Source: Candidatus Woesearchaeota archaeon (GTDB lineage Archaea; Nanobdellota; Nanobdellia; Woesearchaeales; GW2011-AR9). Taken from it: a DNA stretch of 64,000 nt. The notes under the pieces were generated by a model. It had not been told where the DNA came from. It saw only the letters and a program-made list of their open reading frames with translations, and did no database searches. Below are positions 14,538 through 51,830 of this stretch, piece by piece. The DNA lies in the NCBI GenBank assembly GCA_016188115.1, contig JACPIK010000002.1, positions 680,077-744,076 of the forward strand, in the 5' to 3' direction. The number at the start of each line of letters is the position of its first letter. Positions within the stretch are counted from its first letter, which is position 1. The position numbers and the translations under genes are program-made.

Positions 14538-14540
14538 GGT

Positions 14541-15194
14541 CTATTCTCCCGTAACTCTACGAAGATGGTTCTCAAACTCTTGTTTTAAATCTTGTGCAGT
14601 GAATGATAAATGCGAAAATAATTCTACTTCAAAATCCAGCATTTCTTGTTCTTCTTCATGCCTTAGGATCGCATGAGGATACATCTCACGCAAATACGCT
14701 AATCTCTCCCGCAACCCTATAATCTCTGTCTTTAACACTCGCCAATCAATGTAATGCACCAAATTTTCTTCAAATGTTTTGTCTACCACATGAATCCCCG
14801 GTGCGCTGGCTTTACGCAATGACGCCGCCAACCTAGGATACTGCTCACCAAACACTTCATATGCAATTTCTCCTTCGTACTTTCCTGCAAAACGCAATCG
14901 TAATTCTTTCCACTTAGCAATCTCCTCATCTGAATACGCATAAGGATGATATTTATGATTAGGATTTAATTCTTTGAGTGTCACCGCTTTAAACAAATCA
15001 TGTAAGACCGAAAGGGCACGCACAAAATCAACATCAACAGGCTTACCCTCAATTCTAGTTCCATTTTTAACTAACTCTTGTGCTAAAAACATGCTTACCT
15101 CTTGCACCGCTTTGCAATGCGCTAAGATGTTTCTAGGAACTTTATATTCTTCAAAATAAGAGAGGCATTGAGATTGACTTGGAAGAGATATCAT
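14541..15194 (-). CDS. HD-domain phosphohydrolase-family protein inserted between dnaK and dnaJ
   Basis: H...HD signature (AHCKAVQ ... LSVLHDLFK). The track ORF 14541..15686 runs antisense into the dnaK 3' end. The plausible start is MISLPSQ, with its ATG ending at 15194. Confidence 0.6.
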   Translation of the reverse strand: MISLPSQSQCLSYFEEYKVPRNILAHCKAVQEVSMFLAQELVKNGTRIEGKPVDVDFVRALSVLHDLFKAVTLKELNPNHKYHPYAYSDEEIAKWKELRLRFAGKYEGEIAYEVFGEQYPRLAASLRKASAPGIHVVDKTFEENLVHYIDWRVLKTEIIGLRERLAYLREMYPHAILRHEEEQEMLDFEVELFSHLSFTAQDLKQEFENHLRRVTGE

Positions 15195-15252
15195 GTTTGT
15201 GTATAACCCCTCAAAAAATAAACTATAACAAAAAAATAAAAAAAAGCAAGAC

Positions 15253-17166: not shown

Positions 17167-17233
17167 TATATTTTCCTCCATTAAATGGTATTTTTCTTGA
17201 TTTGTTTTTCTTAATCAAATTTTGATTACAATT

Positions 17234-17785
17234 TTACTTTGATTTTGTTTTACTAAGATCCTTCTCTGGATGAGACTTGCCAGGACCATCACTTACTTTT
17301 ACACGTGCAGCACGTAATACTTTTCCATGAAGCAAGTATCCTTTTTGAAATTCTTCAACGATAGTATCCACGGGTTCATCACAAGGCACTTTCATAAGAG
17401 GTTGATGATAGAGGGGATCAAACTTAGCCCCTAATGAATCCAACGCTACAACTCCACTTTTTTCTAAAGCAGAGAGCAACTGAGCGTATAATAATTCCAT
17501 CCCCTCTCGCACATCTTCTACTTTTTGAGTAGGATTCTTTAATGCAAGATGAAAAGTATCTAAAACTGGCAGCAGTTCAATGAGGAACTTTTTAAGTGCC
17601 ATTTGTTCAGCATCAGTTATACGTTGCGTAACTTGCTTACGATAGTTCTCAAAATTAGCTTGAGTACGTTGAAGCAAATCGGTAAGTTCTTCAACTTTAT
17701 CTTTGACAGGAGCCTCTTGCGTTGTGCTAGTAGCATCTGCATTTTCCGTTTTAACAGGTTCGTTTTGTTGATCTAAGTTCGACAT
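17234..17785 (-). CDS. grpE: Nucleotide exchange factor GrpE
   Basis: GrpE coiled-coil and C-terminal domain (LQRTQANFENYRKQ ... HQPLMKV). The track ORF extends to 18082 through the divergent regulator gene. The likely start is MSNLDQQ (17785), or MHSR at 17804. Confidence 0.8.
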   Translation of the reverse strand: MSNLDQQNEPVKTENADATSTTQEAPVKDKVEELTDLLQRTQANFENYRKQVTQRITDAEQMALKKFLIELLPVLDTFHLALKNPTQKVEDVREGMELLYAQLLSALEKSGVVALDSLGAKFDPLYHQPLMKVPCDEPVDTIVEEFQKGYLLHGKVLRAARVKVSDGPGKSHPEKDLSKTKSK

Positions 17786-17802
17786 GGAAGCTCTTGAATG
17801 CA

Positions 17803-17815
17803 TTTTATATATAAA
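17803..17815. promoter_or_regulatory. Palindromic TATA-like box TTTTATATATAAA, about 25 bp upstream of the grpE start
   Basis: An AT palindrome centred about 25 bp from the grpE ATG at 17785. Archaeal promoters carry BRE/TATA near -26. Confidence 0.4.
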
Positions 17816-17834
17816 CATTTCGCAAGGACAAACA

Positions 17835-17842
17835 TTTAAATA
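17835..17842 (+). promoter_or_regulatory. TATA-like box TTTAAATA for the divergent wHTH regulator (leaderless)
   Basis: Lies 23-30 bp upstream of the ATG at 17865. Confidence 0.35.
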
Positions 17843-17864
17843 GAAAAATACCCCTATCCCGCAT

Positions 17865-18269
17865 ATGACACAAAAAGTCACGATTCTGCGAATTCGCCGT
17901 GTTGCCACAGAAAACCTCAACCAAGATCTCCAGTGGTTTGGCTCATCATTAGGACTATTTAATCTGCGTGATAAGGATAGCAGTTGTTTTCGTGTATTTA
18001 TTACCCTGCTTAAGCGCGCTCGGACTTCCGACCTCATCACATCAGATGAAGTTGCAGAAAAATTAGATTTAAGTCGAGGCACCGTCGTACATCATCTGAC
18101 CAAACTTATGGATGCAGGAATAGTCATGCGAGTAAAAGGAGGATATGTACTGCGAGACAACAACCTGCAAAAAGTAATTCGCGATGTCCAAAGAGATATT
18201 GAAAACATCTTTACTGACCTAAACAAAGTAGCGAAAGAAATCGATGACCAGTTAGGTCAGAACTTCTAG
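17865..18269 (+). CDS. Winged-helix transcriptional regulator divergent from the dnaK operon
   Basis: ITSDEVAEKLDLSRGTVVHHLTKLMDAGIVMR is a classic HTH plus wing. Its position suggests it is the heat-shock operon regulator (inference). Confidence 0.5.
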   Translation: MTQKVTILRIRRVATENLNQDLQWFGSSLGLFNLRDKDSSCFRVFITLLKRARTSDLITSDEVAEKLDLSRGTVVHHLTKLMDAGIVMRVKGGYVLRDNNLQKVIRDVQRDIENIFTDLNKVAKEIDDQLGQNF

Positions 18270-18417: not shown

Positions 18418-19926
18418 ATGAAGAACCTCAAAGGATTGTTGCTTTTACTTTCATTCTTACTTATTGCAATCCAGATTATCCAGCTAAGTGTTGTCTTTAG
18501 TATAACTGGCGCAGTAACGGGTGGCACAGCAACAGTAGGATTATGCTACAATCACCAGCCTTCATTTTACAATCTTACGAATTATACCCTCCCCCATAAT
18601 GTTGCATTTAACTCAACCATTTATGCTAATGAAAGCGACAGCGATGCAGTTGCTTTTTTTGATAATACCAGCCTCTTTTTAATAAACAACAATACTGGCG
18701 TATTCTCATTCATACCCTCAATTTTAAATGTAGGCAACCACAGCATAGATATCACCATTCGTGACTATAATAGTTCCTGCGCATCGAATGTAAGCGAAAT
18801 ATTGCTTCTTACTATTAACAACTCGATCCCCTACCAAAATAGAACCATCCCTAATCAAACGTGGGAAGAAGATGTCACCCTCACCGGCATCAATCTTACC
18901 ACCTATTTTGCCGACTACGAAAACGACACACTTAATTTTACTGCCCAAATTGGACACAATATCACAGTAACTATTTCTAATTTTACGGTCACCATCGTTC
19001 CGAATACAGATTATTATGGCATAACCTGGATCGTGTTTAGAGCAAATGACAGCTTAGGAACTGCAACCTCAAATAATGTCACACTCAACATCACTGACGT
19101 AGCAGATTTTTGCGGAGATGCAGTGTGTAATGCAGATGAAAGTTGTTCATCATGTTCTGCTGATTGTGGCAGCTGTGGAGGATCAGGCAGTAGCGGAGGA
19201 GGAGGGGGCAGAGGATCGGGAGGAGCAGCAAGCCCGCGAGTAATAGAAGTGATACCACCAACCCCACCGCAAACAGAATGCAACCCATCTAAAAAGTGCG
19301 GAAATTGGGAACCAGCTTCATGCACAACCCAACCCCAAGAACGCAGTTGTATCGAAATTAAACCAAGCTGCACTGCTATTAAAACCATTGAAACCAGATC
19401 TTGTAATTGTATCCCTGACTGGCAGTGTTCAACGTGGGTTCCTGAACAATGTAACGCTTATCAAACACAACATAGAACCTGTGTAGATCGAAATGACTGT
19501 AACAAAGAACCATATCCTGATGACTCACAAAGCTGTGCTTCAGAATCAACCTACGCAGATTCCCAAGAAGCATTGATAGGACAAGCCATGTGGAGCAACC
19601 TTAAAAATAAAATTGGAAGCCTTACCAGAACAACCCCACTTCTACTCACCATAGTAATTATCTTTTGTGGAATCGGCGGACTCTGGATATGGCACCAACA
19701 CAAACCAAAAATTGCCTTTTGGAAATGTGTAGACACTAAAGAGATAGATACATCAAAATTTATCAGCAAATTCACAAAAGAACAATTAATTGAAATTACA
19801 TCAGAACAAGAAATAAAAATTGATACCTACGTTGAAGCAACCCGCAACAATAAAGTGAAAATACACATCCAAGCGCGTATCAAGGATCATAAAAACAATA
19901 AAACGTCTATTCAACGAGTAGAATAA
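18418..19926 (+). CDS. Surface protein with signal peptide, Cys-rich and Gly/Ser-rich segments, C-terminal TM
   Basis: Signal/TM LLLLLSFLLIAIQII. Dense N-x-S/T sequons. DFCGDAVCNADESCSSCSADCGSCGGSGSSGGGGGRGSGG linker. Cys-rich region CNPSKKCGNWEPASC... TM LLLTIVIIFCGIGGLWIW plus a cytoplasmic tail. Confidence 0.5.
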   Translation: MKNLKGLLLLLSFLLIAIQIIQLSVVFSITGAVTGGTATVGLCYNHQPSFYNLTNYTLPHNVAFNSTIYANESDSDAVAFFDNTSLFLINNNTGVFSFIPSILNVGNHSIDITIRDYNSSCASNVSEILLLTINNSIPYQNRTIPNQTWEEDVTLTGINLTTYFADYENDTLNFTAQIGHNITVTISNFTVTIVPNTDYYGITWIVFRANDSLGTATSNNVTLNITDVADFCGDAVCNADESCSSCSADCGSCGGSGSSGGGGGRGSGGAASPRVIEVIPPTPPQTECNPSKKCGNWEPASCTTQPQERSCIEIKPSCTAIKTIETRSCNCIPDWQCSTWVPEQCNAYQTQHRTCVDRNDCNKEPYPDDSQSCASESTYADSQEALIGQAMWSNLKNKIGSLTRTTPLLLTIVIIFCGIGGLWIWHQHKPKIAFWKCVDTKEIDTSKFISKFTKEQLIEITSEQEIKIDTYVEATRNNKVKIHIQARIKDHKNNKTSIQRVE

Positions 19927-23634: not shown

Positions 23635-26568
23635 CTAATCAAATTGGTTTTTCCAAGCAGCATAGCGAGCATAAATTGGACCGACATACACTAGTTCCAT
23701 ATAATCGCCATTTCCGATTTGTTTTCCTTTATAGGTTCTCACTCTAACATTCATCGCACTCTTAACCGCAGACCACGTTTTTTGACCCTGTGCAATACGA
23801 ATGTATCCATTTACCGCACCAGGACCATCATGATACGCTAAAATTGCTAATTTAATTTGATCTTCCAGTGCAGCGCCTTGATAATTTTGCAAAAGATTAG
23901 CGAATAATTTTGCTTGAGCTTGTATTGAAAGTTCAGGATTAAATCGCGCATCATTTTGTGGAGTGCACATATAGGTACCCTCTTTCCAGACCCTACCCCA
24001 TCTCGCAACTTCATTCATACATCCTTGCCTAGTTTCTTTCTCATTCGGTTCTAAATTTCCACAACACATAACAACTTGATTTGCCCCAAAATAGCTCTTG
24101 GCAGTTTTATAAGTAAATTGAGCCAGCCCAACTGCTCCCGCAGTACTAACTGCCCGAGTGCTAAATCCTGATTCTTTTGAAGTAACTGCTTTAAGTAAAG
24201 AAGGAGGCACATTATGTTCTTCACCATATTTTTTAAACCAAGTATCATATTTTTCTACATTATCCTCGGGAATATCAAAAATAGGTTTTGGACCATCATC
24301 TTCGTCAGCAACACTTGCCACAACAGGAGCAGGATACAATACTGCCCACGGCACAAAGCCAACACCAGTTTGATAGACATATTCCCCCGCAAGAATAAAC
24401 GGCGAAACTCGCCTCCACGCTTTATCAATATTTTTGACTGATTCAGAATACATCTCTGAAATCGCTTTGGTTGTCTCAGGAGCTGACTCACCACGCGGTT
24501 TAACAGACCCATAACCTTCTGAGCTAGGATCAAATGGTTCATCATCTGCAGGAGGAGTTAGATACTCTTGATAGAGCAGCGCATATATTGCTCTTGCCCA
24601 AAGTTTTCCACCAAGCCCGCCTTGTCCAGTATAATGGATTCCATCTCCTCCCGTATATTGAACAGCATCCGTAAGAGTATTAGCATCAATAAAACGACAA
24701 CGAGATTCGACAAGAACTTTAAGAGCTCGATTGATTCCCAACGTATCTACTTTTCTATTAGTTGAAGCTGGCGCGCCTACCCATACACATTTTTTACCTG
24801 ATGAAACAACCTTCTCTACCAGCGAGTTAATATTTGCTGCTTGATTATTAACTCCCTGTGCAGTCAAAAAGTTTGTTCCTAAAGAGATTATAACCATTTC
24901 GGGATTAAATGCAGACAATTGATTTTCAAAATTAAATGGAGTCTGAATAAGATTGCTTGGTGTCTGGCTACCAACCAAGACTAATGATCCTGCCGGATTC
25001 GGTCCAGTTGGTTTCCCCCCACTATCTCGCTTTTCATTACACACTTTATAATTTACTTTATCAAAATTACTTGCAGCTGCCCCTCCACACGCATACGTTT
25101 GAGCTGCAACATTTTTTTGAATTAGTAATCTGTGTAACTCTTTTCCATACGCACCAACAGAATGAGAATCGCCAATGTGCAGTACACTTGAAGGACCAGC
25201 AATCGAAGAACCACTGTATTGTGACATATCCTCTTCTAAAGGATTCGCATTCTTTGCCAGCCAGTCATCAACGCACTCTTGATCATCTGGATCGCAGATA
25301 TCGGCAAGATATGCTTCAGTTTCACTACTAGTAGCAGCGATCGTTTCCTCAGTGTATATATCTTGTATCATTTCACGATAAATCGCCTTACAATAATAAT
25401 ATCCCCCACAAGCATAGTCATCACAATCAACACCACCATCCCCATTATCATCAACACCATTAGTACAATCTTCTACACCATCTTGACTCGAAGATCCTTC
25501 ATCTGAATCCGAAAAGAGACCTGAGTTTAACTGACGATAAATTGCTTTACAATAATCATCTTCACGACAAGCATAATCCTCACAATCAACACTGCCATCC
25601 TCATTATCATCAGCATTATTAGTACAATCTTCCACAGGGATCTCTTCTTCAGTAGGCTCAGCAAGACCTCCCGTCTCTTCATCAACTGCCCCATCCCCCG
25701 CAGCAGCAGCAACAGGATGTACTGCCGGAGCAGAAGTAGGAGAAGAAGGTTCATCAGGAACTAATTCAATTGTATAAGTAAGATCAGAACCACTATTTGC
25801 ATCCGTTGCCGTAGCACCCGCTGGTACATCATTACGTGCATACATCTCATCAGTCGCTGGAGCAGGAGCAGAAGTTGATTCATCAGAAGGATCTAATAAA
25901 ACGTCAATCGTGCCATCTGGATTTACCCGAGCACCATTATTGAAACCTTCCTCACCAGCAGAATCAGCAGGAACAGAAGGATCAGCCCGACACAATAATG
26001 CGCCATTACGAAAAACATTCTCATCAGCAGTATAAAGAACATATAGCCCTTTCACCATGTGTGTACGTGAATCATAAAACCCACTAATTCCGCGAACTTG
26101 AATCGATTGAGTACGAAGATCACAAGTAAATTTATGTTCAGTATAAGCTTGTGGTAGCGTTGATTGGATAGGTACACTAGGAGTTTCGCCACATACCGCA
26201 GCAACTGAAACAATCCCTTCAACCCCATTCTTAGTCGCAGCAATAGCACTAAGACCATTCATAAATCTACCAGCACATCCAGAATCACGTAATACCAATT
26301 CCTCATTACCAATTATAACATTAGATTGATCCTGACAAAATAAACCTAAAGCATCAATAAAACCTGATCGATCTACACTTGCTTGAATCCCCAACGCTGC
26401 TTGTCCATCAGGACAAAGTAATGTAAACGGTTGACCTACCATACTTCCAAGAAGACGACTGCCTGTCTCCAAAAATCGAACATCATTCTCTGCCAAACCA
26501 CCCACTACTAAGATTAACAGTGTAAATAAAACCAAAAATCCAAACCGTTTCATTCCAACACGTTTCAT
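23635..26568 (-). CDS. Secreted multi-domain hydrolase: signal peptide, N-terminal beta-rich domain, Cys/Asp-rich Ca-binding-like repeats, SGNH/GDSL esterase domain, C-terminal family-1 lytic transglycosylase (SLT, GH23) domain
   Basis: Signal FGFLVLFTLLILVVGG. Two copies of EDCTN..DDN.DG.VDC.DYAC...YYCKAIYR. SGNH blocks VLHIGDSHSVG, IISLGTNF, GGDGIHYT. SLT catalytic motif ESGFSTRAVSTAGAVGLAQF and AYHDGPG. Last gene of a four-gene overlapped operon. Confidence 0.7.
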   Translation of the reverse strand: MKRVGMKRFGFLVLFTLLILVVGGLAENDVRFLETGSRLLGSMVGQPFTLLCPDGQAALGIQASVDRSGFIDALGLFCQDQSNVIIGNEELVLRDSGCAGRFMNGLSAIAATKNGVEGIVSVAAVCGETPSVPIQSTLPQAYTEHKFTCDLRTQSIQVRGISGFYDSRTHMVKGLYVLYTADENVFRNGALLCRADPSVPADSAGEEGFNNGARVNPDGTIDVLLDPSDESTSAPAPATDEMYARNDVPAGATATDANSGSDLTYTIELVPDEPSSPTSAPAVHPVAAAAGDGAVDEETGGLAEPTEEEIPVEDCTNNADDNEDGSVDCEDYACREDDYCKAIYRQLNSGLFSDSDEGSSSQDGVEDCTNGVDDNGDGGVDCDDYACGGYYYCKAIYREMIQDIYTEETIAATSSETEAYLADICDPDDQECVDDWLAKNANPLEEDMSQYSGSSIAGPSSVLHIGDSHSVGAYGKELHRLLIQKNVAAQTYACGGAAASNFDKVNYKVCNEKRDSGGKPTGPNPAGSLVLVGSQTPSNLIQTPFNFENQLSAFNPEMVIISLGTNFLTAQGVNNQAANINSLVEKVVSSGKKCVWVGAPASTNRKVDTLGINRALKVLVESRCRFIDANTLTDAVQYTGGDGIHYTGQGGLGGKLWARAIYALLYQEYLTPPADDEPFDPSSEGYGSVKPRGESAPETTKAISEMYSESVKNIDKAWRRVSPFILAGEYVYQTGVGFVPWAVLYPAPVVASVADEDDGPKPIFDIPEDNVEKYDTWFKKYGEEHNVPPSLLKAVTSKESGFSTRAVSTAGAVGLAQFTYKTAKSYFGANQVVMCCGNLEPNEKETRQGCMNEVARWGRVWKEGTYMCTPQNDARFNPELSIQAQAKLFANLLQNYQGAALEDQIKLAILAYHDGPGAVNGYIRIAQGQKTWSAVKSAMNVRVRTYKGKQIGNGDYMELVYVGPIYARYAAWKNQFD

Positions 26569-27122
26569 TCGACCCTAAACCTCTTGACTAATGAAATTCG
26601 CTTATCTAATAACGGATTTTCCACCATGATTTCTACTTGATATTCACCCAGATCAGGATTATCTCCAAGCGTAAAATAATCTGCAAACGCCGCAGGTTCA
26701 TTTTCTTTTGTAGATTCGTGTTCTAACAGATAGGAATTTTTCTCTTCCAAATTAAGAATAATATTGCCCTGAGGATTAACAATGCGATAATTTCGCACTA
26801 ACATGATTTGATTATCATATGTACTACTCTGCACTAAGAACCGTAAATAGATTTCATCGCCTTTTGCAAACACATCGGTTTTTTGATAACAATTAAACTT
26901 CACATCAACATACTTGCAAAAATCAAACTGACGAATCTGAAGGTCACCGCCGCGACCTAAAGGAATAAATTCTGTATTAAGAAGACTAACCTGTTGCGCT
27001 TGATCTGAACTTTCCTCAAATGCACCAACATAAATTAACAGTAACATGATCCCTGTTGTAATCGCCGCAACAATCGCAATCACCGCCACTTGTACCAGAA
27101 CTGAACCTTTGTTGGAGATCAT
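26565..27122 (-). CDS. Small N-terminally membrane-anchored extracellular protein (operon member)
   Basis: TM VLVQVAVIAIVAAITTGIMLLLIYV. Start and stop overlap the flanking genes by 4 nt each. Confidence 0.45.
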   Translation of the reverse strand: MISNKGSVLVQVAVIAIVAAITTGIMLLLIYVGAFEESSDQAQQVSLLNTEFIPLGRGGDLQIRQFDFCKYVDVKFNCYQKTDVFAKGDEIYLRFLVQSSTYDNQIMLVRNYRIVNPQGNIILNLEEKNSYLLEHESTKENEPAAFADYFTLGDNPDLGEYQVEIMVENPLLDKRISLVKRFRVE

Positions 27123-30100
27123 GATGAGCCCCCCCCGGAATTACATTGTGCTTCCAAGATTGGTTTAGTCGCTGCACTTGCTGCAGAAATTTGAAAGTTA
27201 GCTAGTTCTACTCCATCACTAATTTTACATGCTTTTGCTTCGGTTGCGCTAATACATTTATACGCATAAACAGAATCAGTAATAGGCAGAGTATACCCCT
27301 TAGCACCACAAAGAGATGAATCTGCTAAAGCCCTCTTCGCAGCAGCCACTTTCCCTTCATTACAATATTTCACAACACCTTTGTTAAACTTCTTATCTAC
27401 CTCACATAAATACGCATAGATTTTGTGAAACTCATCTGTATTTTCAAGATCGTCATCATCCGTCTCTTCACTTCCTTTATCATAACCCGCAGCTATATCA
27501 CCAGAATAATCCCGCAAGAAGAAATATTTCAAAAGATTATCAATATTCACAGCGTACGTTTCAATACTGCCTTGTTTTTGTCCTTTCATAATCAACGATA
27601 AAATTTCATAATACAATGTCATCACGTTACTCATGTCGCCTTGTAATTTCTGCAATTCCTCGGTCGCAATCTCATGAACACGATCATAATTTTCTTGCAT
27701 AAAGAAATCATGAACTCCGCCAAGTTCAGCAATAGCCATTGGTTGACGCTGAATACGCACAAGTTGAACATGACGATTTTTACCAATTGCCGGTTGTTTA
27801 GTAACTTGTGTTGCAAACGCACAGCCCTTGCTTTCATCCTGATCTAATAACTCATACACTACCTGAACATCTTTCCAATTATTCTGTGTTGCATAGACAC
27901 TTCTCTTCGACACTCGATAAGTACATTGTAATGGTTGCGCAGAAAAGTCTGGTTGACCAATCACTTGACTAATCACAAACCCGTCTGCATTAAATTGTGC
28001 CGCGTTGGCATTTTCTAATGACATAGCTGCAACACCATCTTTTTGCAGCAACCCGCCAGTGATAGAATACCCATTACGTGAAGAAGTAGACGTTAACGAC
28101 GCATCAGCAGGAACAGTAACTTGCACAAGAGTGTTTTGCACCTGAGTAAACGAGAAGACAAACTCATTACGATCTTGCACGGTTTCAGGAGACCCAAAAT
28201 AATTTGGCTGATTTGGACATCCCGCATTACTTGGAGCTCCATTCACTTTTTCTAATTGATTTGACATTCCGCCAAACATTGTCTCCGTTACTGGACCTAA
28301 TACATCTTCTTTGAGATATGTTCCTTGCACATTCTCTGGAATGACCGCAGCCCCCACTACTTCAGGAACACCTGGAAGATTTCGCACCGTACGTCGTAAA
28401 CACATCCCTTTGCCATTCAAAGCAAGATTAACACGTACACGAATATCATCATGTTCACTCGCAACAAAAATATTAGGAGTGCGACAATCAACCCATTTAT
28501 CATTGCGTTTATCATAACATTCCATATACGGAGATTCAATCGCTGCTTGACCAGTACCGAACAGACTTGCTAATTCAGGACAATCATACCGACCCGACAC
28601 AGCATCAACAGTACAAGTAGCAACACCAGGAGGAGTAACATCAGTAATTGGTTGATACCATACTCCTTTACGACCAGAAAGAACCTCTTTATCAAAACAT
28701 AATTCTGGATTTTCACCAGGATCTAATTCCAGTTCTACTTTAACGTGATCGTAACGGAAATGAGAATCGACACGTTGAGGTGTTTCAATAGGCACACTAA
28801 ACATTCTTCCTCCTTGAATGTTCATACTCGTATCAATAATTTTTTCACGTTCACCAGCAAATTCGGGTGCTTTGCTCGCGCGTAAACAATCGCAACCTTT
28901 GCCATTACACGATTCATCCACACCAAAAAATCCTCGATCTTCCGGACCAATGCATTCCAAAGACACTTGTGAACGAGTAATCTTACAACCAGGCATAACA
29001 ATAACACCAATTTCATAATTATGAATGGCTGTTTCTTTTGCAGGGTTAAATGTACTTAACTCACGAAATGCAGGAGCAACCACAACAGAACTATGTGTTG
29101 GAAACGCATATGCCGCATCTAGTAAAAAGTCCTCACTAAATAAAGGAAAATCAAACCCAAATGCTGCCATACACATTGATTGCGCAAATCCCTGTGCGCC
29201 ACCTTGGAAGTAATTATTTAATTGCGCATTACCATAATCACTTTTGATATCATTCACCGATGATTGCAGCGCACTCGACATCCCTTGAGTGCCTTCCTTA
29301 AGCACAACGCCAATATCTTCAAACGCACCGCCTTTTCCAATATCATCAAAGTTTGAAGGTGTACAGCTTGTAAGCATCGCTGCAACTCCTTTATACACTA
29401 AACCACAGACATTCTGACTAAACCAGGTCTTACACGCACCCGCATCATATAATCCAGTATATTTCGCTTCAACTAAACAATTACGTAATCCAACTAAGAT
29501 ACTCTCAATCATCACCATGTGTTTAAGAATACCTGAGGTGCACATTGTTTGCACGGATTCAATAAGACCAGCATGAGGATCTACTTTTGCAACCTGTTTA
29601 TCCTCACCACGAATATAATCAATCAAATAATCCTGACCAAACGCGCCAGAAAAATCACGTCCATGATAATAGCGAATCGTTGGATAATTTGTTCCAAACT
29701 TGCCATTTGATTCTTTAAAGATACGTTCCTCTCGATAGAACCACTCTTCCTCAACACCGGGTTTGTATTTTCCAATTTCTACAGCAGTGCGTAAACTACG
29801 GTCTCCACTTGGTTCTATTGACGCATCCGGTTTCTTACCCATACATACACATTGATAGAATTCAGGCTCTTTATTTTCAGTAAATGATTCAATAAAACAA
29901 TCTTTAGTATATCCCGTGGCATACCGTTCAGTTTTATCAACAGTACCTAATTTTTTACCATTTTTATCATATAACTGAGTAATTCCACTTTCATCTTTAC
30001 CTTCTTTATAACAGCCTTTTCCTAAATGTCCCAGATCAGAATCAGTTTTAAACTCACCACCATACCTTCCTTTATAGGGGTCAGTACAAGCTTCTTGACA

Positions 30101-32878
30101 AGAAATATCTCTTCCAGCAATAAGACCCTCAGATCCAGGGGGTTGATAAACAACAAGTCTTTCAGATTTTTCTAGCCCACCTAATAATTTATTCGCGGAA
30201 CGAAGATGAAATACGCCTACTTGTTCATCACGAGGAACTTGTTCACTAGGATCCATAAAAAAGACAGTATCACTTCCATCTCCTTTAGTCCAACATTTTG
30301 CAACATCTTTAGTGTCTATAGTTAAACCAGTAGAATCTGCTTTCAATCTTTCCTGACAATTCTCCAATGGAATCAATGGTGCACCACGTCCCGTCACCGC
30401 GCATGCATTCTGCTCCTGTATGACATTATTAATCTGTTCTTCAGTCTTATCCTCTGTCCATCCAGCAGGAACAGCACGGCAAAATGCGCGATCACACGTC
30501 CAACGATATGCTGTATCCAACGCTGCTTCAAATTTCCACGCCGTTGTCGTCGAATCACACTGCTCATCAAGAGTATGCGCTTTTGTGTTAGGACCATCAA
30601 CAAGACCCCCATCAGCCTCATACCAATCTACAACCGCTTGAGGTAAATCTTTTTTATATTGTTCATCAGCTTTGATAAGAGCATACCAATTCTCCAGCGT
30701 TTCACGCATATACAAATTATTTTGTTTAAGCGGACATTTACCGCTGCTATCAAACCCTTCCCCTTTCTGCTTCGCTTTTGCTTCAGGTTTTGCTAATTCA
30801 AAATATGATTCTAAACGTGATGTTGCCACACGCACACCACGACTTACCCATCTTCCTAAGAAAGACGCAATACAACTTACTCCCGTAATCAAATAGGCTG
30901 TTTCGACATACTCACGCGCAGTTTGTAATTGGGTAATTGTCCAATTTAATGCTGCAACACCATCATTCGCAATAAAGTCCGGAATTAAATCAGCGCTATC
31001 AACAGGAATATCCACAAAATACCCAATATCTTGACAAGTAGTTTGGGTTTTAGTTCCACTCCATTTATCCTCTCCACCCTCGGCTTTGCCTTCCCGTTCT
31101 TCGTATTCAATAGAAATCTTAATAGGAAACATTAATTGCCGTTTCTTAAAATCATTCCAAAAATCGTCTTCTTTCTTACTAAATTCCGCAGCCCCAATCA
31201 GTGTCCACGTTGCATAGACCGCTTCCTCACCTTTCAATGGTCGAGTAGAACCCGGCATAAGTTGACAACCAAGACCAAATTTCTCATCTTCTTGCATTGA
31301 TTGCGTACACGCTTTCTCAATACGCACATTCTTTATTCTATAAGCTCGTTCATAGACTTCCCCACTTTTATCAAGTACCGGCGTGCCTTGACCTAAATAA
31401 TTAAACTTAAAGACTGCTTGAATTTCCTGACGCCCTTCATCAAGTAATGTTGGATTCAACGCATACGGTGTTTGGAATTTAACCATATTCTCAACACCAA
31501 ACGCCAGATCGCCCGACGCGCAGGAATTAACATTAACCGTTCGCTGCCACGAAATTGATTTACCGCTTTCGTCTTCCGCAATTAAAAAGACATGATATGT
31601 TGCCTGTTGTGCTGCAGCAACTGCTTCCTGAATAGGAAAAATAGTATATTCTAACAACTGGATGGGAACTTCTCGAGGTGTTAATTTTTTAGCCGTAAGT
31701 TGATCACGCAAAGATAAAGAAAAATCAACATCTTTAAAGCGAAACGACCCATTTTGATCTGCTTCGACAACTTTTACTGCACGACTAAAATCAGGATGAA
31801 ATTCGTATCCTTGCGGTCGATAAATGTACAAGTACACTTTTGCTCCAGGTTCTGTTTCTCCTGAAATGGAAGATTCAGCTCGACCTTCATAAAATTGATA
31901 TCCCTTCTCTATCTCTGCGCGTAACGTGGGAGCGCGCGTATCCGCTTTCACTAAAAACTGCTTCTCGCTTTGCCATCCAGCCCGATCCGCTGCCACAACC
32001 ACAATAGTATTATCGCCTTCTTGTAAGCTTACTTCCAAAGAAAAGAAAGTAGTAGGAGGACTTTGCGCAACAGAACGATTGTTAACAAATATTTCCACGC
32101 TTGAATTTTCGCTAATTGTCCCATTAAGAACGATCCGATTCTCATTTGCAAATTCTTCAATAGGAATCAATTGAACCACAGGTTTGTGAGTATCGGCAAA
32201 AACCACAGTAGTAGTATTAGCTTTATTGCCAAAGGCATCAGTTGCTTCAATAAAAATAAGATTTTCTTTTTCTGCATCAAGTGTAATTCCACTCACTTTG
32301 AACTCACCATCAGTAACACCAGAACTTGCACCAACTGCCTGCGTGCTTGCGCCCAATCGACCATTTACAAGTACCCGTACACTTGCTCCATTCTCTGCTG
32401 TTCCATTAAAAGAAAGAGAAGTACCTTGGATAACTTCCGGTAGCACGACCACCACTCCTGAAGTAGAAAGATCCTGCGCTGCTGTTTGAAATGAATAATA
32501 ACTTCCCTGCGCATCATCAACCACATCACCGCTTTGCACTTTATATTGATACGTCGTTTGGGAACTAAGACCAGACAAAGGCAATCGATGCTCAATAACC
32601 TCATCAGCATCACCACGTCGCACAAACTCAGCAGGATCAGTGCCAAACTCAACAAAACTATTTGCCGCTTCATCAGTTTCCCATGCAAGTATTGCGCTAT
32701 CCTGCGTAACATTTTCAGCACGCACATGAGATATCTCAAGCGCAGAAACCAACGTCGTATTCACCAGTAAAAAGAGCACACCAAGTACCATTATCTTCCA
32801 AGCAGTACTACTAACGTAACTACCCCTGTAACTTCTTGCGTGACTACTCGTGTGTTTTGTTTTTACCATGTTAATCAT
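27119..32878 (-). CDS. Giant (1919 aa) secreted/surface protein with N-terminal fn3-like and Ig-like repeats and a large Cys-containing C-terminal region
   Basis: Signal-anchor IMVLGVLFLLVNTTLVSA. fn3-like ISHVRAENVTQDSAILAWETD...TTYQYKVQS. Repeated beta-rich segments. No catalytic motif recognised. Confidence 0.6.
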   Translation of the reverse strand: MINMVKTKHTSSHARSYRGSYVSSTAWKIMVLGVLFLLVNTTLVSALEISHVRAENVTQDSAILAWETDEAANSFVEFGTDPAEFVRRGDADEVIEHRLPLSGLSSQTTYQYKVQSGDVVDDAQGSYYSFQTAAQDLSTSGVVVVLPEVIQGTSLSFNGTAENGASVRVLVNGRLGASTQAVGASSGVTDGEFKVSGITLDAEKENLIFIEATDAFGNKANTTTVVFADTHKPVVQLIPIEEFANENRIVLNGTISENSSVEIFVNNRSVAQSPPTTFFSLEVSLQEGDNTIVVVAADRAGWQSEKQFLVKADTRAPTLRAEIEKGYQFYEGRAESSISGETEPGAKVYLYIYRPQGYEFHPDFSRAVKVVEADQNGSFRFKDVDFSLSLRDQLTAKKLTPREVPIQLLEYTIFPIQEAVAAAQQATYHVFLIAEDESGKSISWQRTVNVNSCASGDLAFGVENMVKFQTPYALNPTLLDEGRQEIQAVFKFNYLGQGTPVLDKSGEVYERAYRIKNVRIEKACTQSMQEDEKFGLGCQLMPGSTRPLKGEEAVYATWTLIGAAEFSKKEDDFWNDFKKRQLMFPIKISIEYEEREGKAEGGEDKWSGTKTQTTCQDIGYFVDIPVDSADLIPDFIANDGVAALNWTITQLQTAREYVETAYLITGVSCIASFLGRWVSRGVRVATSRLESYFELAKPEAKAKQKGEGFDSSGKCPLKQNNLYMRETLENWYALIKADEQYKKDLPQAVVDWYEADGGLVDGPNTKAHTLDEQCDSTTTAWKFEAALDTAYRWTCDRAFCRAVPAGWTEDKTEEQINNVIQEQNACAVTGRGAPLIPLENCQERLKADSTGLTIDTKDVAKCWTKGDGSDTVFFMDPSEQVPRDEQVGVFHLRSANKLLGGLEKSERLVVYQPPGSEGLIAGRDISCQEACTDPYKGRYGGEFKTDSDLGHLGKGCYKEGKDESGITQLYDKNGKKLGTVDKTERYATGYTKDCFIESFTENKEPEFYQCVCMGKKPDASIEPSGDRSLRTAVEIGKYKPGVEEEWFYREERIFKESNGKFGTNYPTIRYYHGRDFSGAFGQDYLIDYIRGEDKQVAKVDPHAGLIESVQTMCTSGILKHMVMIESILVGLRNCLVEAKYTGLYDAGACKTWFSQNVCGLVYKGVAAMLTSCTPSNFDDIGKGGAFEDIGVVLKEGTQGMSSALQSSVNDIKSDYGNAQLNNYFQGGAQGFAQSMCMAAFGFDFPLFSEDFLLDAAYAFPTHSSVVVAPAFRELSTFNPAKETAIHNYEIGVIVMPGCKITRSQVSLECIGPEDRGFFGVDESCNGKGCDCLRASKAPEFAGEREKIIDTSMNIQGGRMFSVPIETPQRVDSHFRYDHVKVELELDPGENPELCFDKEVLSGRKGVWYQPITDVTPPGVATCTVDAVSGRYDCPELASLFGTGQAAIESPYMECYDKRNDKWVDCRTPNIFVASEHDDIRVRVNLALNGKGMCLRRTVRNLPGVPEVVGAAVIPENVQGTYLKEDVLGPVTETMFGGMSNQLEKVNGAPSNAGCPNQPNYFGSPETVQDRNEFVFSFTQVQNTLVQVTVPADASLTSTSSRNGYSITGGLLQKDGVAAMSLENANAAQFNADGFVISQVIGQPDFSAQPLQCTYRVSKRSVYATQNNWKDVQVVYELLDQDESKGCAFATQVTKQPAIGKNRHVQLVRIQRQPMAIAELGGVHDFFMQENYDRVHEIATEELQKLQGDMSNVMTLYYEILSLIMKGQKQGSIETYAVNIDNLLKYFFLRDYSGDIAAGYDKGSEETDDDDLENTDEFHKIYAYLCEVDKKFNKGVVKYCNEGKVAAAKRALADSSLCGAKGYTLPITDSVYAYKCISATEAKACKISDGVELANFQISAASAATKPILEAQCNSGGGSS

Positions 32879-32894
32879 TTAAGATTGAAATTGT

Positions 32895-34937
32895 TTAAGA
32901 TTGAACCTCAGGAAGAGGGACTGCATAGCTATATTGCGCTAAATCCCCCATTAATTCTAATATCCCCTCCGTTGAGCTATCTGTTGGGACTAATGTGTGA
33001 ATTATAATTTTGTGAGCTTCTTCAAGTTCATCCCATGCTACTGACCAATTTCCTTTATAGCCGCCGATAATTTCACCGCCAACTTCTCCTGCTTCTCCTT
33101 TAAGTAAGAGTACTTCCAAAGGATATGTAAAATCCGCTTCTGCTAAAAATTCAATATTTTGTTGCGATTGTATATGAGGATCAAGCGTCGCAGAAATAAC
33201 TGCTTTTGATTCATGAAAATGCGTTGCGAAGAGATCGCGTTTTGTACGATTTGCATCATAATATAGTGAAACAAACGCCGTAACCTCATCATCTAATGCA
33301 ACTGCGGGACCAACCTGAGTAGGAGACGTAAACGAATGAGTAACGATCTCAATATTTGAAATGGGAAATTTTTGGAGAGGAATTAAGTCAAATTCAACTT
33401 CTGCATCAGGCGTCGTAATGACTCGTTTCCAATCTTCTTTATACCCTTCTTTAGTCGCGCGAACAATCGCGCCGCCGCATTGAGGCACATTAGTACGCGC
33501 CGCCGCAACATCACCCATACCGGCAAAATCATACTGAGTTGAAACAATATTATCGCATTGATAACGCAAACAAGAGTAAGACATCTCAACATTCTCCAAT
33601 GGAACACGCCAATATACCCCTGTTTGCCAATTCTCTACCAATTTATAGGTCTTCATCATCAAAGGAACTGAACCACTTTGACAAAATTCTTCATCACCAT
33701 ATGCCCCAAAGACTCCAGAAACAGCTTGTGTAGGCACCGCATTTCTATTCGCGATATTTCGCGCAAGATGTACTGTAAATGCGGTTTTAAAATCATAACC
33801 CGTCGTTTCATCACGAACATGAACCATAACCGGATAACTCACATCATAGGTAAATTTCCAAGATTGCAAACAGAAAAATGACAAGAGAGCATTTTTCTGC
33901 CCTAACTGATTGCTACGTAAAACTCGACCACTTCGCGGAGTAACATCAAACGAAAAAGGATACGAATCATCAAACGAAAAAACCACTGACACATCATCAT
34001 TAAACAAAATATCATCGCCAATATCCCAAACATAATGATTAGTATAATATGATAAATCTTCAGGATATTCAACAATATCAGTGCCTTTTACCTGCAAACG
34101 CGCAAGGTTATATCGCAACAAATCTTTCAGAGTTTGTTTAACAGTATCAATCTCCCAGCGTTTTGTCCCGCAACTTACTTCAAATCCCGCAACAGGCACA
34201 TCAGGATGTTCTAATGCAATCAAATCCTGTGTCAAATCTTCTAATTTAAGATCACGCAGTTCTCGTTCTACAATTCGCCGAGAAAGATCATAAACACGTT
34301 TAAGTTTGATGTCAGATTCTGCAACGTGATCCACCACTTCAGTAACAACTTCTCCGTTTTTGTCCCGAATGACTAAATGCCATCGCACATTAAAAATGAT
34401 TTTGCTCTCAACAAGTTCTGTGTTAACTTTTACAAGATCCCTCTCTTCAATTTGATAAGTATCGAGTCGATCAGGTTCAAACACACACCCATGAAGTTTT
34501 TGTTCAATTTCCCGATCAAGTTGCATTTTGATTTCATCTAACGTAGGATACATCGTTTGCGTGCCATATGCCCAATATGGAACTAAAGAGAGAGGAGAAG
34601 TACGTAAATGTAAATTAGCATTCTCTGCAATCGAAGAAGGTACAGAAAGATATCCGCCCTGCGCTCCTAAACGGCGAACCGCATCTTCTCCAATAGATTC
34701 AATACAAGAAGTAATGAGTGATTCCACGCGACTTTTCTCCGTGGGAATAATTTCTCCAGGTTTGAAGGTAACTATTTCAGTTTTAATAGCAATAATTAAG
34801 ATAATTGCAAGCAACGCCACTATCCCCAGAATAATAAAAATTGTTACTTGACCCTTCCGTGAACCAGAAAACAAAATAGGAGAAGACCTAATAGTATAGT
34901 TACTACTAAAAACACGATCCAACCTCTTTTTTTGCAT
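32895..34937 (-). CDS. N-terminally membrane-anchored 680-aa extracellular protein (first gene of the surface operon)
   Basis: TM VTIFIILGIVALLAIILIIAI. A TATA-like element lies 15-30 bp upstream. Confidence 0.5.
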   Translation of the reverse strand: MQKKRLDRVFSSNYTIRSSPILFSGSRKGQVTIFIILGIVALLAIILIIAIKTEIVTFKPGEIIPTEKSRVESLITSCIESIGEDAVRRLGAQGGYLSVPSSIAENANLHLRTSPLSLVPYWAYGTQTMYPTLDEIKMQLDREIEQKLHGCVFEPDRLDTYQIEERDLVKVNTELVESKIIFNVRWHLVIRDKNGEVVTEVVDHVAESDIKLKRVYDLSRRIVERELRDLKLEDLTQDLIALEHPDVPVAGFEVSCGTKRWEIDTVKQTLKDLLRYNLARLQVKGTDIVEYPEDLSYYTNHYVWDIGDDILFNDDVSVVFSFDDSYPFSFDVTPRSGRVLRSNQLGQKNALLSFFCLQSWKFTYDVSYPVMVHVRDETTGYDFKTAFTVHLARNIANRNAVPTQAVSGVFGAYGDEEFCQSGSVPLMMKTYKLVENWQTGVYWRVPLENVEMSYSCLRYQCDNIVSTQYDFAGMGDVAAARTNVPQCGGAIVRATKEGYKEDWKRVITTPDAEVEFDLIPLQKFPISNIEIVTHSFTSPTQVGPAVALDDEVTAFVSLYYDANRTKRDLFATHFHESKAVISATLDPHIQSQQNIEFLAEADFTYPLEVLLLKGEAGEVGGEIIGGYKGNWSVAWDELEEAHKIIIHTLVPTDSSTEGILELMGDLAQYSYAVPLPEVQS

Positions 34938-34951
34938 TAGGTTAATGATAG

Positions 34952-34967
34952 TTATATAATTTATAAA
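34952..34967 (-). promoter_or_regulatory. TATA-like promoter element (TTATATAATTTATAAA) for the four-gene surface operon
   Basis: An AT-rich TATA-like sequence 15-30 bp upstream of the ATG at 34937. Confidence 0.4.
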
Positions 34968-51793: not shown

Positions 51794-51830
51794 ACAGAGC
51801 AAACGAAAATCAAAAAACAGGTAAAATACT

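What the first reader, a model, noticed from the sequence alone, without database searches (positions are those of the whole stretch)
23635..26568. An archaeal secreted enzyme combining SGNH esterase and family-1 lytic transglycosylase (SLT/GH23) domains
The C-terminal domain carries the SLT catalytic signature ESGFSTRAVSTAGAVGLAQF...AYHDGPG. Upstream of it is a full SGNH hydrolase (GDSH, GTN and DGIHYT blocks). The protein has a signal peptide and Asp/Cys-rich Ca-binding-like repeats. Archaea have no murein, and SLT enzymes cleave the MurNAc-GlcNAc bond of bacterial peptidoglycan. SGNH domains of this type often act as peptidoglycan O-acetylesterases that license SLT cleavage. In an archaeon with an episymbiont-like gene repertoire, this is a strong candidate for an enzyme that attacks or remodels a bacterial host or neighbour cell wall. 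Alternatively it indicates a murein-like polymer in the archaeon itself.
Basis: partly seen in the sequence, partly recalled or inferred. Interest (0 to 1): 0.85.

Follow-up and report, generated by a model that had tools for sequence, protein, structure and literature searches.

The report
Archaeal bacterial-wall-cutting enzyme in conserved cassette
A tiny Woesearchaeota archaeon encodes a secreted two-enzyme protein predicted to strip acetyl groups from bacterial cell-wall peptidoglycan and then cut it; that such archaea carry wall-cutting domains was already known, but this gene turns out to fill a swappable "lytic enzyme" slot in a widespread four-gene surface cassette.

Summary

The general idea is not new. 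SLT-domain proteins in Woesearchaeota and Pacearchaeota, with the same anti-bacterial reading, were published between 2013 and 2024, and NCBI already annotates this protein.

What appears undescribed is the context. The gene is the last of a four-gene cassette: a ~680-aa anchored protein, a ~1,900-aa secreted giant, a ~185-aa anchored protein, then the enzyme. A metagenome scan confirmed 120 relatives of the giant protein and retrieved 77 loci. In those loci the fourth slot is polymorphic: SLT, phage-type lysozyme, MurNAc-L-Ala amidase, M15/M14 peptidases, polysaccharide deacetylase, SGNH and phosphoesterases. This points to bacterial peptidoglycan as the target.

Best explanation: a surface-deployed enzyme that de-O-acetylates and then cleaves bacterial murein. 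No biochemical evidence exists.

The parts
26491..26568 (-). Sec-type signal peptide (residues 1-26, predicted cleavage after GLA)
   Evidence: Single N-terminal hydrophobic segment. n/h/c-region layout seen by inspection. The orthologue P0002 has the same layout (VIA|DD).
25969..26490 (-). N-terminal variable region (residues 27-200): three Cys-bracketed, predicted all-beta repeats; function unassigned, possibly target recognition
   Evidence: Cysteines at 52/78, 98/126, 149/193. Only 20% identity to the orthologue. AlphaFold model unusable, pLDDT 34. No Pfam or PDB sequence match.
25657..25968 (-). Acidic, Pro/Ser/Thr-rich low-complexity linker (residues 201-304)
   Evidence: Composition: D+E 21, K+R 2, P 12, no Cys.
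25204..25656 (-). Asp/Cys-rich region with two acidic double-disulfide repeats (residues 315-340 at 25549-25626; residues 368-393 at 25390-25467)
   Evidence: NCBIfam NF033662, two stretches, 32 bits against a cut-off of 41. Same repeat type occurs in P0003 and in Myxococcota proteins.
24559..25191 (-). SGNH hydrolase domain, DUF459/PatB-like (residues 460-670). Ser468/His469 (block I), Gly564/Asn566 (block III), His645 (block V); conserved Cys594-Cys624 pair
24274..24558 (-). Inter-domain linker containing the conserved IDxAW motif (Asp715, Trp718; 24415-24429) and a small helix-hairpin element
   Evidence: D715 and W718 are invariant in 13 sequences and at least 90% conserved in 44 fourth-gene products. 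Modelled at pLDDT about 75.
23638..24273 (-). SLT / GH23 family-1 lytic transglycosylase domain (residues 766-977). Catalytic Glu799-Ser800 (24169-24174), GLAQ 814-817, AYHDG 911-915. Four-Cys insertion at 832-868 (23965-24075)
26565..27122 (-). Cassette gene 3: 185-aa protein with an N-terminal membrane anchor, no known domain. Its stop overlaps the enzyme's start (ATGA)
   Evidence: Orthologues at 61% and 31% identity in syntenic loci. Family found in 66 of 77 census loci.
27119..32878 (-). Cassette gene 2: 1,919-aa secreted giant protein. Sec signal peptide, Ig-like/FN3-like N-terminal domains, then a large Cys-rich conserved body of unknown fold
   Evidence: Pfam Glucodextran_B, Big_6, Pur_ac_phosph_N. 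PDB profile hit only to a biofilm-associated surface protein Ig domain, E=1.3e-4. Full-length orthologues at 64/35/34% identity. 120 metagenomic relatives. Conserved ...VSA|LE cleavage-like site.
32895..34937 (-). Cassette gene 1: 680-aa protein with a conserved [KR][GA]-QVTIFIILG N-terminal anchor, no known domain
   Evidence: Orthologues at 66/42/41% identity. Motif present in 41 of 53 non-redundant family members. No Pfam or PDB hit.
34960..34967 (-). TTTATAAA TATA-box-like element 22 nt upstream of the cassette's first ATG; candidate archaeal promoter for a leaderless four-gene transcript (inference)
   Evidence: Sequence read. The four genes are separated by 16 nt, a 4-nt overlap and a 4-nt overlap.

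Best explanation
The gene encodes a secreted, disulfide-rich, bifunctional cell-wall enzyme of a Woesearchaeota (DPANN) archaeon that acts on bacterial peptidoglycan. The proposed mechanism has four steps. (1) The protein is exported by Sec and works outside the cell, probably together with the three co-transcribed surface proteins. (2) The DUF459/PatB-like SGNH domain uses Ser468 and His645, with Asn566 and Gly564 forming the oxyanion hole, to remove O-acetyl groups from C6 of MurNAc. That modification blocks lytic transglycosylases. (3) The C-terminal family-1 SLT domain uses Glu799 to cleave the MurNAc-beta-1,4-GlcNAc bond, which needs the freed C6-OH to form 1,6-anhydroMurNAc. (4) The hypervariable N-terminal beta-rich region and the acidic Cys repeats provide targeting or spacing. 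The gene fills the fourth, polymorphic 'lytic enzyme' slot of a conserved four-gene cassette. The cassette most likely serves to breach or digest the wall of a bacterial host, prey or neighbour. Shown here: domain identities, catalytic-residue conservation, folds, secretion signals, cassette conservation and slot polymorphism. Inferred: substrate, esterase rather than transferase direction, cooperation of the two domains, physical association with the cassette partners, and the biological purpose.
Against: There is no biochemical or expression evidence. The SGNH fold does not discriminate substrate: generic esterases score as high as PatB, OatA and Ape1. The target's own Pfam scores for SGNH families are below their cut-offs. 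The block V Asp is not conserved in the family, so the triad may be a dyad or use another acid. PatB itself is a transferase, not an esterase. The slot also holds domains with no obvious peptidoglycan link (FGE-sulfatase 9, DUF2272 8, DUF218 6, Metallophos 5, EEP 4). The functions of the three partner proteins are unknown, and no bacterial partner organism is identified. GH23 also contains chitinolytic enzymes (3w6b, weak hit).
Confidence: 0.65

Rival explanations
1. Necromass scavenging rather than attack. The enzyme is released to digest peptidoglycan debris from dead bacteria, as a source of amino sugars and amino acids for a metabolically poor archaeon, with no specific host or prey.
For: The enzymology is the same as in the best explanation. 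Peptidoglycan from dead cells has been proposed as a nutrient for related Pacearchaeota (PMC11537232). No C-terminal cell-anchoring signal is seen on the enzyme.
Against: The enzyme is translationally coupled to three conserved anchored or secreted surface proteins, including a 1,900-aa giant. It also has a hypervariable N-terminal region and slot polymorphism. Both features fit contact-dependent, target-specific use better than bulk digestion. No uptake or catabolic genes for muropeptides lie beside the cassette.
Confidence: 0.18
2. The cassette builds or remodels the archaeon's own envelope (for example an S-layer with a glycan), and the SLT/SGNH enzyme processes an endogenous GlcNAc-containing polymer or a murein-like wall.
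For: The cassette is vertically inherited, lies next to housekeeping genes (PAC2, Fpg, enolase) and is near-universal in the lineage. The giant protein could be an S-layer-like component (Ig-like domains).
Against: No mur or pseudomurein genes occur in the window. Pseudomurein is reported only in Methanopyrales and Methanobacteriales (PMC11915815). The slot alternates between MurNAc-L-Ala amidase, D-Ala-D-Ala-type peptidases and muramidases, which would all require a true murein. A housekeeping wall enzyme would not be expected to be the fastest-evolving, domain-swapping member of its operon.
Confidence: 0.06
3. The substrate is chitin or another acetylated polysaccharide: a GH23-type chitinase with a carbohydrate acetylesterase, used for polymer degradation.
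For: GH23 includes lysozyme-like chitinolytic enzymes (3w6b/3w6e, weak hits E 0.08-0.12). SGNH relatives include acetyl-xylan esterases (2w9x E=0.005; several). Polysacc_deac_1 also acts on chitin. PatB accepts chitooligosaccharides in vitro (PMC9487903).
Against: The profile matches murein transglycosylases 10-13 orders of magnitude better than chitinolytic GH23 enzymes. Peptide-stem enzymes in the same slot (Amidase_2, M15_4, VanY, M14; Peptidase_M74 beside it) have no role on chitin.
Confidence: 0.07
4. The gene is a viral or prophage lysin, or bacterial contamination, rather than a native archaeal gene.
For: The best single-sequence PDB and phage matches of the SLT domain are T7-like gp16 / internal virion protein D. 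SLT and SGNH are bacterial-type domains.
Against: Phage matches cover only the SLT domain at 28-34% identity, and no phage or viral contig carries the module. The locus is syntenic across genomes whose orthologues are only 27-39% identical, and it is flanked by archaeal genes. Composition is native. The contig is 1.47 Mb.
Confidence: 0.02

Closest known systems
[quoted passage not shown]
   Same: Same lineage, a secreted protein, an SLT domain, and the same proposed role of binding or degrading bacterial cell walls. NCBI already names this exact protein 'transglycosylase SLT domain-containing protein'.
   Different: Those reports describe only the SLT domain. None of the texts I read mention the fused PatB-like SGNH domain, the four-gene cassette or the polymorphism of the enzyme slot. 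Whether this protein belongs to fam00969 could not be checked.
Neisseria LtgA-Ape1 peptidoglycan-degrading complex (PMC7083599)
   Same: It pairs a family-1 lytic transglycosylase with an SGNH enzyme acting on the 6-O-acetyl group of MurNAc. De-O-acetylation licenses transglycosylase cleavage, and the two proteins bind and stimulate each other.
   Different: There the partners are two separate periplasmic proteins that remodel the cell's own wall. Here they form one secreted polypeptide in an organism without murein. The SGNH domain here is closer to DUF459/PatB than to Ape1.
PatB / DUF459 peptidoglycan O-acetyltransferase family (PF04311; PDB 7trr, 7tjb)
   Different: PatB adds acetyl groups using the membrane partner PatA. 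No MBOAT partner is present here, and the domain is extracellular and fused to an enzyme that O-acetylation would inhibit. The target scores only 13 bits against PF04311, whose cut-off is 27.2.
Phage T7 gp16 / internal virion protein D and other virion-associated lysins
   Same: The SLT domain is the best single-sequence PDB match (6yt5, 7eyb) and the only phage match. It acts on peptidoglycan from outside the target cell, as part of a large delivered protein assembly.
   Different: It has no SGNH domain and is a virion component rather than a cellular gene. Identity is only 28-34% over the SLT domain.
Modular phage endolysins and polymorphic peptidoglycan-targeting effectors
   Same: Interchangeable glycosidase, amidase, peptidase and esterase modules are attached to variable targeting regions. 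The catalytic cargo varies in a fixed genomic position beside conserved structural genes.
   Different: The conserved partners here (680-aa, about 1,900-aa and 185-aa proteins) resemble no known secretion, tail or holin component. No immunity gene is expected or seen, because the producer lacks murein.
Archaeal peptidoglycan hydrolases shown to kill bacteria (PMC12352652)
   Same: They give experimental precedent that archaea secrete peptidoglycan hydrolases as weapons against bacteria.
   Different: That study's text does not mention SLT, GH23 or SGNH. It refers to Woesearchaeota transglycosylases only by citing Vigneron 2022.

Membership tests
SLT / GH23 family-1 lytic transglycosylase (PF01464) | Profile match above the curated threshold | tested here: met
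   68.6 bits against a cut-off of 21.3, E=4.6e-19, two stretches spanning the domain. The family profile matches MltC at 1e-14.
SLT / GH23 family-1 lytic transglycosylase (PF01464) | Catalytic Glu followed by Ser (E-S), plus the GLxQ and AYNxG motifs | tested here: met
   E799, S800, G811, G814 and Q817 are invariant in 13 sequences. The third motif is AYHDG in the target (AYNxG/SHNxG in relatives).
SLT / GH23 family-1 lytic transglycosylase (PF01464) | Lysozyme-like alpha-helical fold superposable on solved lytic transglycosylases | tested here: met
SLT / GH23 family-1 lytic transglycosylase (PF01464) | Non-hydrolytic cleavage giving 1,6-anhydroMurNAc (as opposed to lysozyme-type hydrolysis) | not testable with these tools
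   Goose-type lysozymes, also GH23, match less well (about 1e-6 against 1e-14), but product chemistry needs an assay.
SGNH hydrolase superfamily | Block I Ser nucleophile (GDS), block III Gly-x-Asn, block V His | tested here: met
   S468, G564, N566 and H645 are invariant in 13 sequences. The same blocks occur in the stand-alone relatives P0004-P0007.
SGNH hydrolase superfamily | Block V Asp (DxxH) completing the triad; block II Gly | tested here: inconclusive
   The target has D642-x-x-H645, but that Asp position varies across the family (D/S/G/K/N). The block II Gly is only about 70% conserved.
SGNH hydrolase superfamily | Profile match above the curated threshold in this protein | tested here: not met
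   Lipase_GDSL_2 22.4 against 32.9; Lipase_GDSL 13.4 against 23.6. Relatives do exceed their thresholds: P0013 38.1, P0009, P0014.
SGNH hydrolase superfamily | Three-layer alpha/beta/alpha SGNH fold | tested here: met
DUF459 / PatB peptidoglycan O-acetyltransferase family (PF04311) | Profile match above the curated threshold | tested here: not met
   The target scores 13.0 bits against 27.2. The relative P0009 scores 29.5, which passes; others score 17-27. I therefore file it as DUF459-like, not as a member.
DUF459 / PatB peptidoglycan O-acetyltransferase family (PF04311) | Works with a membrane MBOAT partner (PatA) encoded nearby | tested here: not met
   No MBOAT gene occurs in the cassette or the window, nor in the syntenic loci.
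Ape1 O-acetylpeptidoglycan esterase family | Significant sequence relationship to characterised Ape1 | tested here: not met
Ape1 O-acetylpeptidoglycan esterase family | Hydrolysis of 6-O-acetyl-MurNAc in peptidoglycan | not testable with these tools
   This needs an esterase assay on O-acetylated sacculi.
DPANN extracellular SLT-domain proteins (Castelle 2021 fam00969 and similar) | Encoded by Woesearchaeota or Pacearchaeota, exported, contains an SLT domain | tested here: met
   Archaeal markers in the window.
DPANN extracellular SLT-domain proteins (Castelle 2021 fam00969 and similar) | Belongs to the published protein cluster fam00969 | not tested
   Cluster membership lists were not consulted. 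The paper's text gives only 'up to 3,000 aa'.

The most novel reading that the evidence does not exclude
The four-gene cassette would be a dedicated and widespread Woesearchaeota surface apparatus for attaching to and breaching bacterial cell walls. Its parts are a pilin-like-anchored ~680-aa protein, a ~1,900-aa secreted giant, a ~185-aa anchored protein and a swappable lytic enzyme. The polymorphic fourth slot and its hypervariable N-terminal region would encode which bacterial wall chemistries, and therefore which hosts or prey, each lineage can exploit. That would be a new kind of cross-domain interaction machine, analogous in logic to phage tail-lysin modules but built from unrelated proteins.
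Probability: 0.35. Interest if true: 0.8.

Novelty: new variant of a known kind. Interest (0 to 1): 0.55.

Why it matters
Who the hosts of Woesearchaeota and Pacearchaeota are, and how these ultrasmall archaea interact with them, remains an open question. SLT genes have been the main hint that some of them target bacteria rather than archaea. This analysis turns a single-domain hint into a testable system in three ways. First, it identifies a covalent de-O-acetylase plus transglycosylase design that would overcome a common bacterial defence, O-acetylated peptidoglycan. Second, it places the gene in a conserved, probably co-transcribed cassette of surface proteins that can be localised or pulled down. 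Third, it describes a polymorphic enzyme slot whose domain content could be correlated with co-occurring bacteria to predict hosts. The enzymes are also candidate antibacterial lysins with built-in resistance-breaking activity.

Tried and rejected
1. Homology search with the linker+SLT sub-sequence returned nothing, not even the protein itself. This looks like a limitation of the word index, and the search was wasted.

2. The genome-contig scan with alignment A2 failed because no stretch was conserved enough. With A1 the tool chose the acidic repeat as its pattern. It returned mostly Myxococcota repeat proteins plus the one known orthologue genome, so no taxonomic census came from genomes.

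3. Structure prediction of the N-terminal region failed (pLDDT 34).

4. My recollection-based lead that the three Cys-bracketed repeats resemble a VMO-I-type beta-prism lectin found no support in PDB sequence searches. The apparent hits to designed beta-trefoils are one 18-residue coincidence repeated three times.

6. The partner proteins gave no informative hits in Pfam, NCBIfam or PDB profile searches.

7. The idea that the 680-aa and 185-aa partners are type IV pilin-like was not supported by Pfam, with no Pilin_N or archaellin hit even at E<=5. It survives only as a conserved motif.

8. Cluster look-ups for the nearest single-domain relatives gave no taxonomic names.

9. I could not confirm from PMC5077204 that PDB 8gr2 (Cj0610c) is C. 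jejuni Ape1, so I do not rely on that.

Full report
**1. The observation**

The window contains a 977-aa ORF at 23635-26568 on the minus strand.

- GDSHS at 466-470, LGTN at 563-566 and DGIHYT at 642-647.
- ESGFSTRAVSTAGAVGLAQF at 799-818 and AYHDGPG at 911-917.
- Two Asp/Cys-rich repeats at 315-340 and 368-393.

The N-terminus has the layout of a Sec signal peptide: a basic n-region, a 17-residue hydrophobic core, then GLA|EN. The 24 cysteines, an even number, fit an extracellular disulfide-bonded protein.

The Pfam SLT match is unambiguous at 68.6 bits against a cut-off of 21.3. The SGNH match in this protein alone is below Pfam's cut-off (22.4 against 32.9), so it needed independent support, given in section 3. 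The repeats match NCBIfam's acidic double-disulfide repeat below its cut-off. The same repeat type is abundant in Myxococcota proteins.

**2. Is the contig archaeal?**

Yes. The window encodes TFB, GatD, archaeal LonB, a PAC2 proteasome-assembly chaperone, TYW3 and Trm61/GCD14, on both sides of the gene. It also carries the bacterial-type DnaK/DnaJ/GrpE set, which is documented as common in DPANN archaea (PMC8204110).

The identical protein is in NCBI as 'transglycosylase SLT domain-containing protein [Candidatus Woesearchaeota archaeon]' on a 1.47-Mb contig. GC content of the gene (0.41) and of its SLT part (0.39) matches the window (0.385). Contamination and recent transfer are therefore both unlikely.

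**3. The two catalytic domains**

An exhaustive HMMER search with residues 438-977 found 1,090 relatives. Among the 150 best cluster representatives, 17 carry both domains, and two of those have the reverse order. All ten of the closest relatives have SLT above threshold plus an SGNH-clan hit, and several of those hits exceed their cut-offs.

In a 13-sequence alignment of the module (A2) the following residues are invariant:

- SGNH domain: Ser468, His469, Gly564, Asn566 and His645.
- SLT domain: Glu799, Ser800, Gly811, Gly814 and Gln817.
- Elsewhere: a Cys594/Cys624 pair and an IDxAW motif (Asp715, Trp718) in the linker.

The block V Asp is present in the target but is not conserved in the family.

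**4. Which kind of SGNH domain is it?**

- Its closest stand-alone relatives carry PF04311/DUF459.
- The best PDB sequence match of the family profile is PatB, peptidoglycan O-acetyltransferase B (E=4.6e-4). An acetyl-xylan esterase follows at 0.005, and Neisseria Ape1 (4k3u) at a non-significant 0.07.
- DUF459 is the PatB family, which acts on the C6-OH of MurNAc (PMC9487903).

The domain is therefore DUF459/PatB-like but not a formal member, since the target scores 13 bits against a cut-off of 27.2. The enzyme is extracellular, has no MBOAT partner, and is fused to a transglycosylase that O-acetylation would block. Hydrolytic de-O-acetylation is therefore the most sensible direction, but this is inference.

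The functional logic has an experimental precedent. O-acetylation prevents lytic transglycosylase action, Ape1 removes the acetyl group, and LtgA and Ape1 form a complex in which each stimulates the other (PMC7083599).

**5. Genomic context: a conserved cassette**

The gene is the last of four tightly packed minus-strand genes:

| Gene | Coordinates | Junction with the next gene |
|---|---|---|
| 680 aa | 32895-34937 | 16-nt gap |
| 1,919 aa | 27119-32878 | ATGA overlap |
| 185 aa | 26565-27122 | ATGA overlap |
| 977 aa enzyme | 23635-26568 | (last gene) |

A TTTATAAA element lies 22 nt upstream of the first ATG. All four products have N-terminal export or anchor segments.

The same arrangement occurs around relatives that share only 27-42% identity:

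- L001 (P0002), L012/L013 (P0015) and L014 (P0162).
- L015 (P0019), L017 (P0029) and L019 (P0008).

The flanking genes differ between some of these loci, so the cassette is the conserved unit rather than the wider neighbourhood. The partners are true orthologues and are better conserved than the enzyme:

| Protein | Identity to the window protein (%) |
|---|---|
| 680 aa | 66 / 42 / 41 |
| Giant (1,919 aa) | 64 / 35 / 34 |
| 185 aa | 61 / 31 |
| Enzyme (977 aa) | 39 / 30 / 27 |

The enzyme's N-terminal region is essentially unalignable between orthologues (20% identity).

**6. Census of the cassette**

A metagenome scan with the giant-protein alignment confirmed 120 relatives, of which 77 distinct loci were retrieved. 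Most are full-length matches at 31-51% identity. With home-made HMMs, the 680-aa family is present in 62 loci and the 185-aa family in 66. The order 680 / giant / 185 / large fourth gene holds wherever enough sequence is available. The fourth gene often overlaps the third by the same 4 nt. PAC2 lies upstream in 34 of 50 evaluable loci.

Pfam annotation of 44 complete, non-redundant fourth-gene products gave:

| Group | Families (number of members) |
|---|---|
| Glycan-strand cleaving | SLT 14, Phage_lysozyme2 3, Hydrolase_2 1 |
| Peptide-stem cleaving | Peptidase_M15_4 5, VanY 1, Amidase_2 2, Peptidase_M14 1 |
| Deacylating | Lipase_GDSL_2 8, Lipase_GDSL 5, DUF459 2, Polysacc_deac_1 2 |
| Phosphoesterases | Metallophos 5, Exo_endo_phos 4 |
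| Unclear relevance | FGE-sulfatase 9, DUF2272 8, DUF218 6 |

Example architectures include M15_4 alone, DUF2272 + Phage_lysozyme2 + FGE-sulfatase, SGNH + M14, SGNH + DUF218 and EEP + DUF218. Others are M15_4 + SLT, M23 + SLT, Metallophos + SLT, EEP + SGNH + SLT and deacetylase + SGNH + SLT. One locus adds a separate Peptidase_M74 (MepA-type) gene.

The target is therefore one allele of a polymorphic 'lytic enzyme' slot. Several of the alternative domains (MurNAc-L-Ala amidase, D-Ala-D-Ala-type peptidases, muramidases) make sense only on true murein. This is the strongest evidence here that bacterial peptidoglycan is the substrate.

**7. Rival explanations**

- Viral or prophage origin. Phage matches are limited to the SLT domain of T7-like internal virion proteins at 28-34% identity, and no viral contig carries the module. 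Synteny with housekeeping genes also argues against it.
- Self-wall remodelling. No murein or pseudomurein genes occur in the window, and the literature restricts pseudomurein to two methanogen orders (PMC11915815). The full genome could not be scanned.
- Chitin or another glycan. This is disfavoured by the profile ranking and by the peptide-stem enzymes found in the same slot.
- Necromass scavenging. This cannot be excluded and differs from the best explanation only in biological purpose. The coupling to conserved surface proteins and the hypervariable N-terminus favour contact-dependent use.

**8. Comparison with what is known, and novelty**

Large extracellular SLT/GH23 proteins in Woesearchaeota and Pacearchaeota, interpreted as tools against bacterial walls, have been reported repeatedly (PMC8204110, PMC9723730, PMC10936187, PMC11537232). 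Archaeal peptidoglycan hydrolases of other families have been shown experimentally to kill bacteria (PMC12352652). The headline of the finding is therefore already known.

I did not find three things in the papers searched:

- The fusion with a PatB-like SGNH domain.
- The conserved four-gene cassette.
- The polymorphism of its terminal slot.

I rate this a new variant of a known kind, of moderate interest. It would rise substantially if the cassette proves to be a dedicated wall-breaching apparatus.

**9. Limits**

Everything functional is inferred from sequence, predicted structure and context. The functions of the three partner proteins are unknown. The N-terminal domain of the enzyme is unassigned. 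No bacterial partner organism is identified. Taxonomic assignment of the 77 metagenomic loci rests on synteny (PAC2 and archaeal neighbours) rather than on phylogeny.

Noticed in passing
window 32895-34937 (-), N-terminal residues about 25-50; same family in L020-L096: The 680-aa cassette partner has a strongly conserved N-terminus, [KR][GA]-QVTIFIILGI..., present in 41 of 53 non-redundant family members. From memory it resembles archaeal class III (type IV pilin / archaellin-like) signal peptides such as RG|QVGIGTLIVFIA. Pfam found no Pilin_N or archaellin match even at E<=5, so this is a motif-level lead only.
   Followed up: partly
window 27119-32878 (-); L020-L096: The 1,919-aa giant protein defines a large uncharacterised family. 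It has 120 metagenomic relatives, is conserved over its full length and has dozens of invariant Cys, Trp and Gly residues. It carries a conserved Sec-type signal ending ...VSA|LE. Only the N-terminal Ig/FN3-like domains are recognisable.
   Followed up: partly
L012 11722-14290 (+): In one relative the cassette is extended after the SGNH-SLT gene. The additions are a 164-aa paralogue of the 185-aa partner and a 693-aa protein with Peptidase_M74 (MepA-type murein endopeptidase).
   Followed up: partly
window 7219-13052 (+): A second large surface-protein pair lies here: a 1,531-aa protein with three Laminin_G_3 (concanavalin-like) domains, overlapping by 4 nt a 413-aa protein without clear domains. 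Other Ig-like or cadherin-like secreted proteins lie at 18418-19926 and 50249-52862. The window is rich in putative adhesins.
   Followed up: no
window 13413-18082 (-): A bacterial-type DnaJ / DnaK / GrpE chaperone cluster sits in an archaeal genome. The same cluster lies near the cassette in the orthologous locus L001. This is a known DPANN feature (PMC8204110).
   Followed up: no
window 25390-25626 (-); L005-L011: The acidic C-x-[ND]-G-x-D-[DN]-[DN]-x-D-G-x-[VI]-D-C-x-D repeat of the enzyme is the same repeat type found in long arrays in Myxococcota/Deltaproteobacteria secreted proteins and in the metagenomic protein P0003. This suggests a mobile extracellular spacer or Ca-binding module shared across domains of life.
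   Followed up: no
A7 fourth-gene products, e.g. L031 15863-18778, L045 15602-18769, L043 7695-10043: FGE-sulfatase-like domains (9 of 44), DUF2272 (8 of 44) and DUF218 (6 of 44) recur in the lytic-enzyme slot, next to lysozyme, SGNH or EEP domains. Their role in a wall-degrading context is unexplained and could point to new cell-wall-active activities or binding modules.
   Followed up: no
window 23965-24075 (-), residues 832-868: A four-cysteine insertion (CC...C...C) lies between the GLxQ and AY[NH]xG motifs of the SLT domain. It is shared by a subgroup of the family and replaced by a different Cys-rich insertion in another subgroup. It is only partly modelled, with pLDDT falling to 49-78.
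   Followed up: no
window 43434-45041 (+) and 58357-59835 (-): Two unusual fusions were noted: a putative cyclase domain joined to a PfkB sugar kinase (535 aa), and an AMP/thymidine-phosphorylase-like protein with a weak CDC48_N-like N-terminal domain.
   Followed up: no
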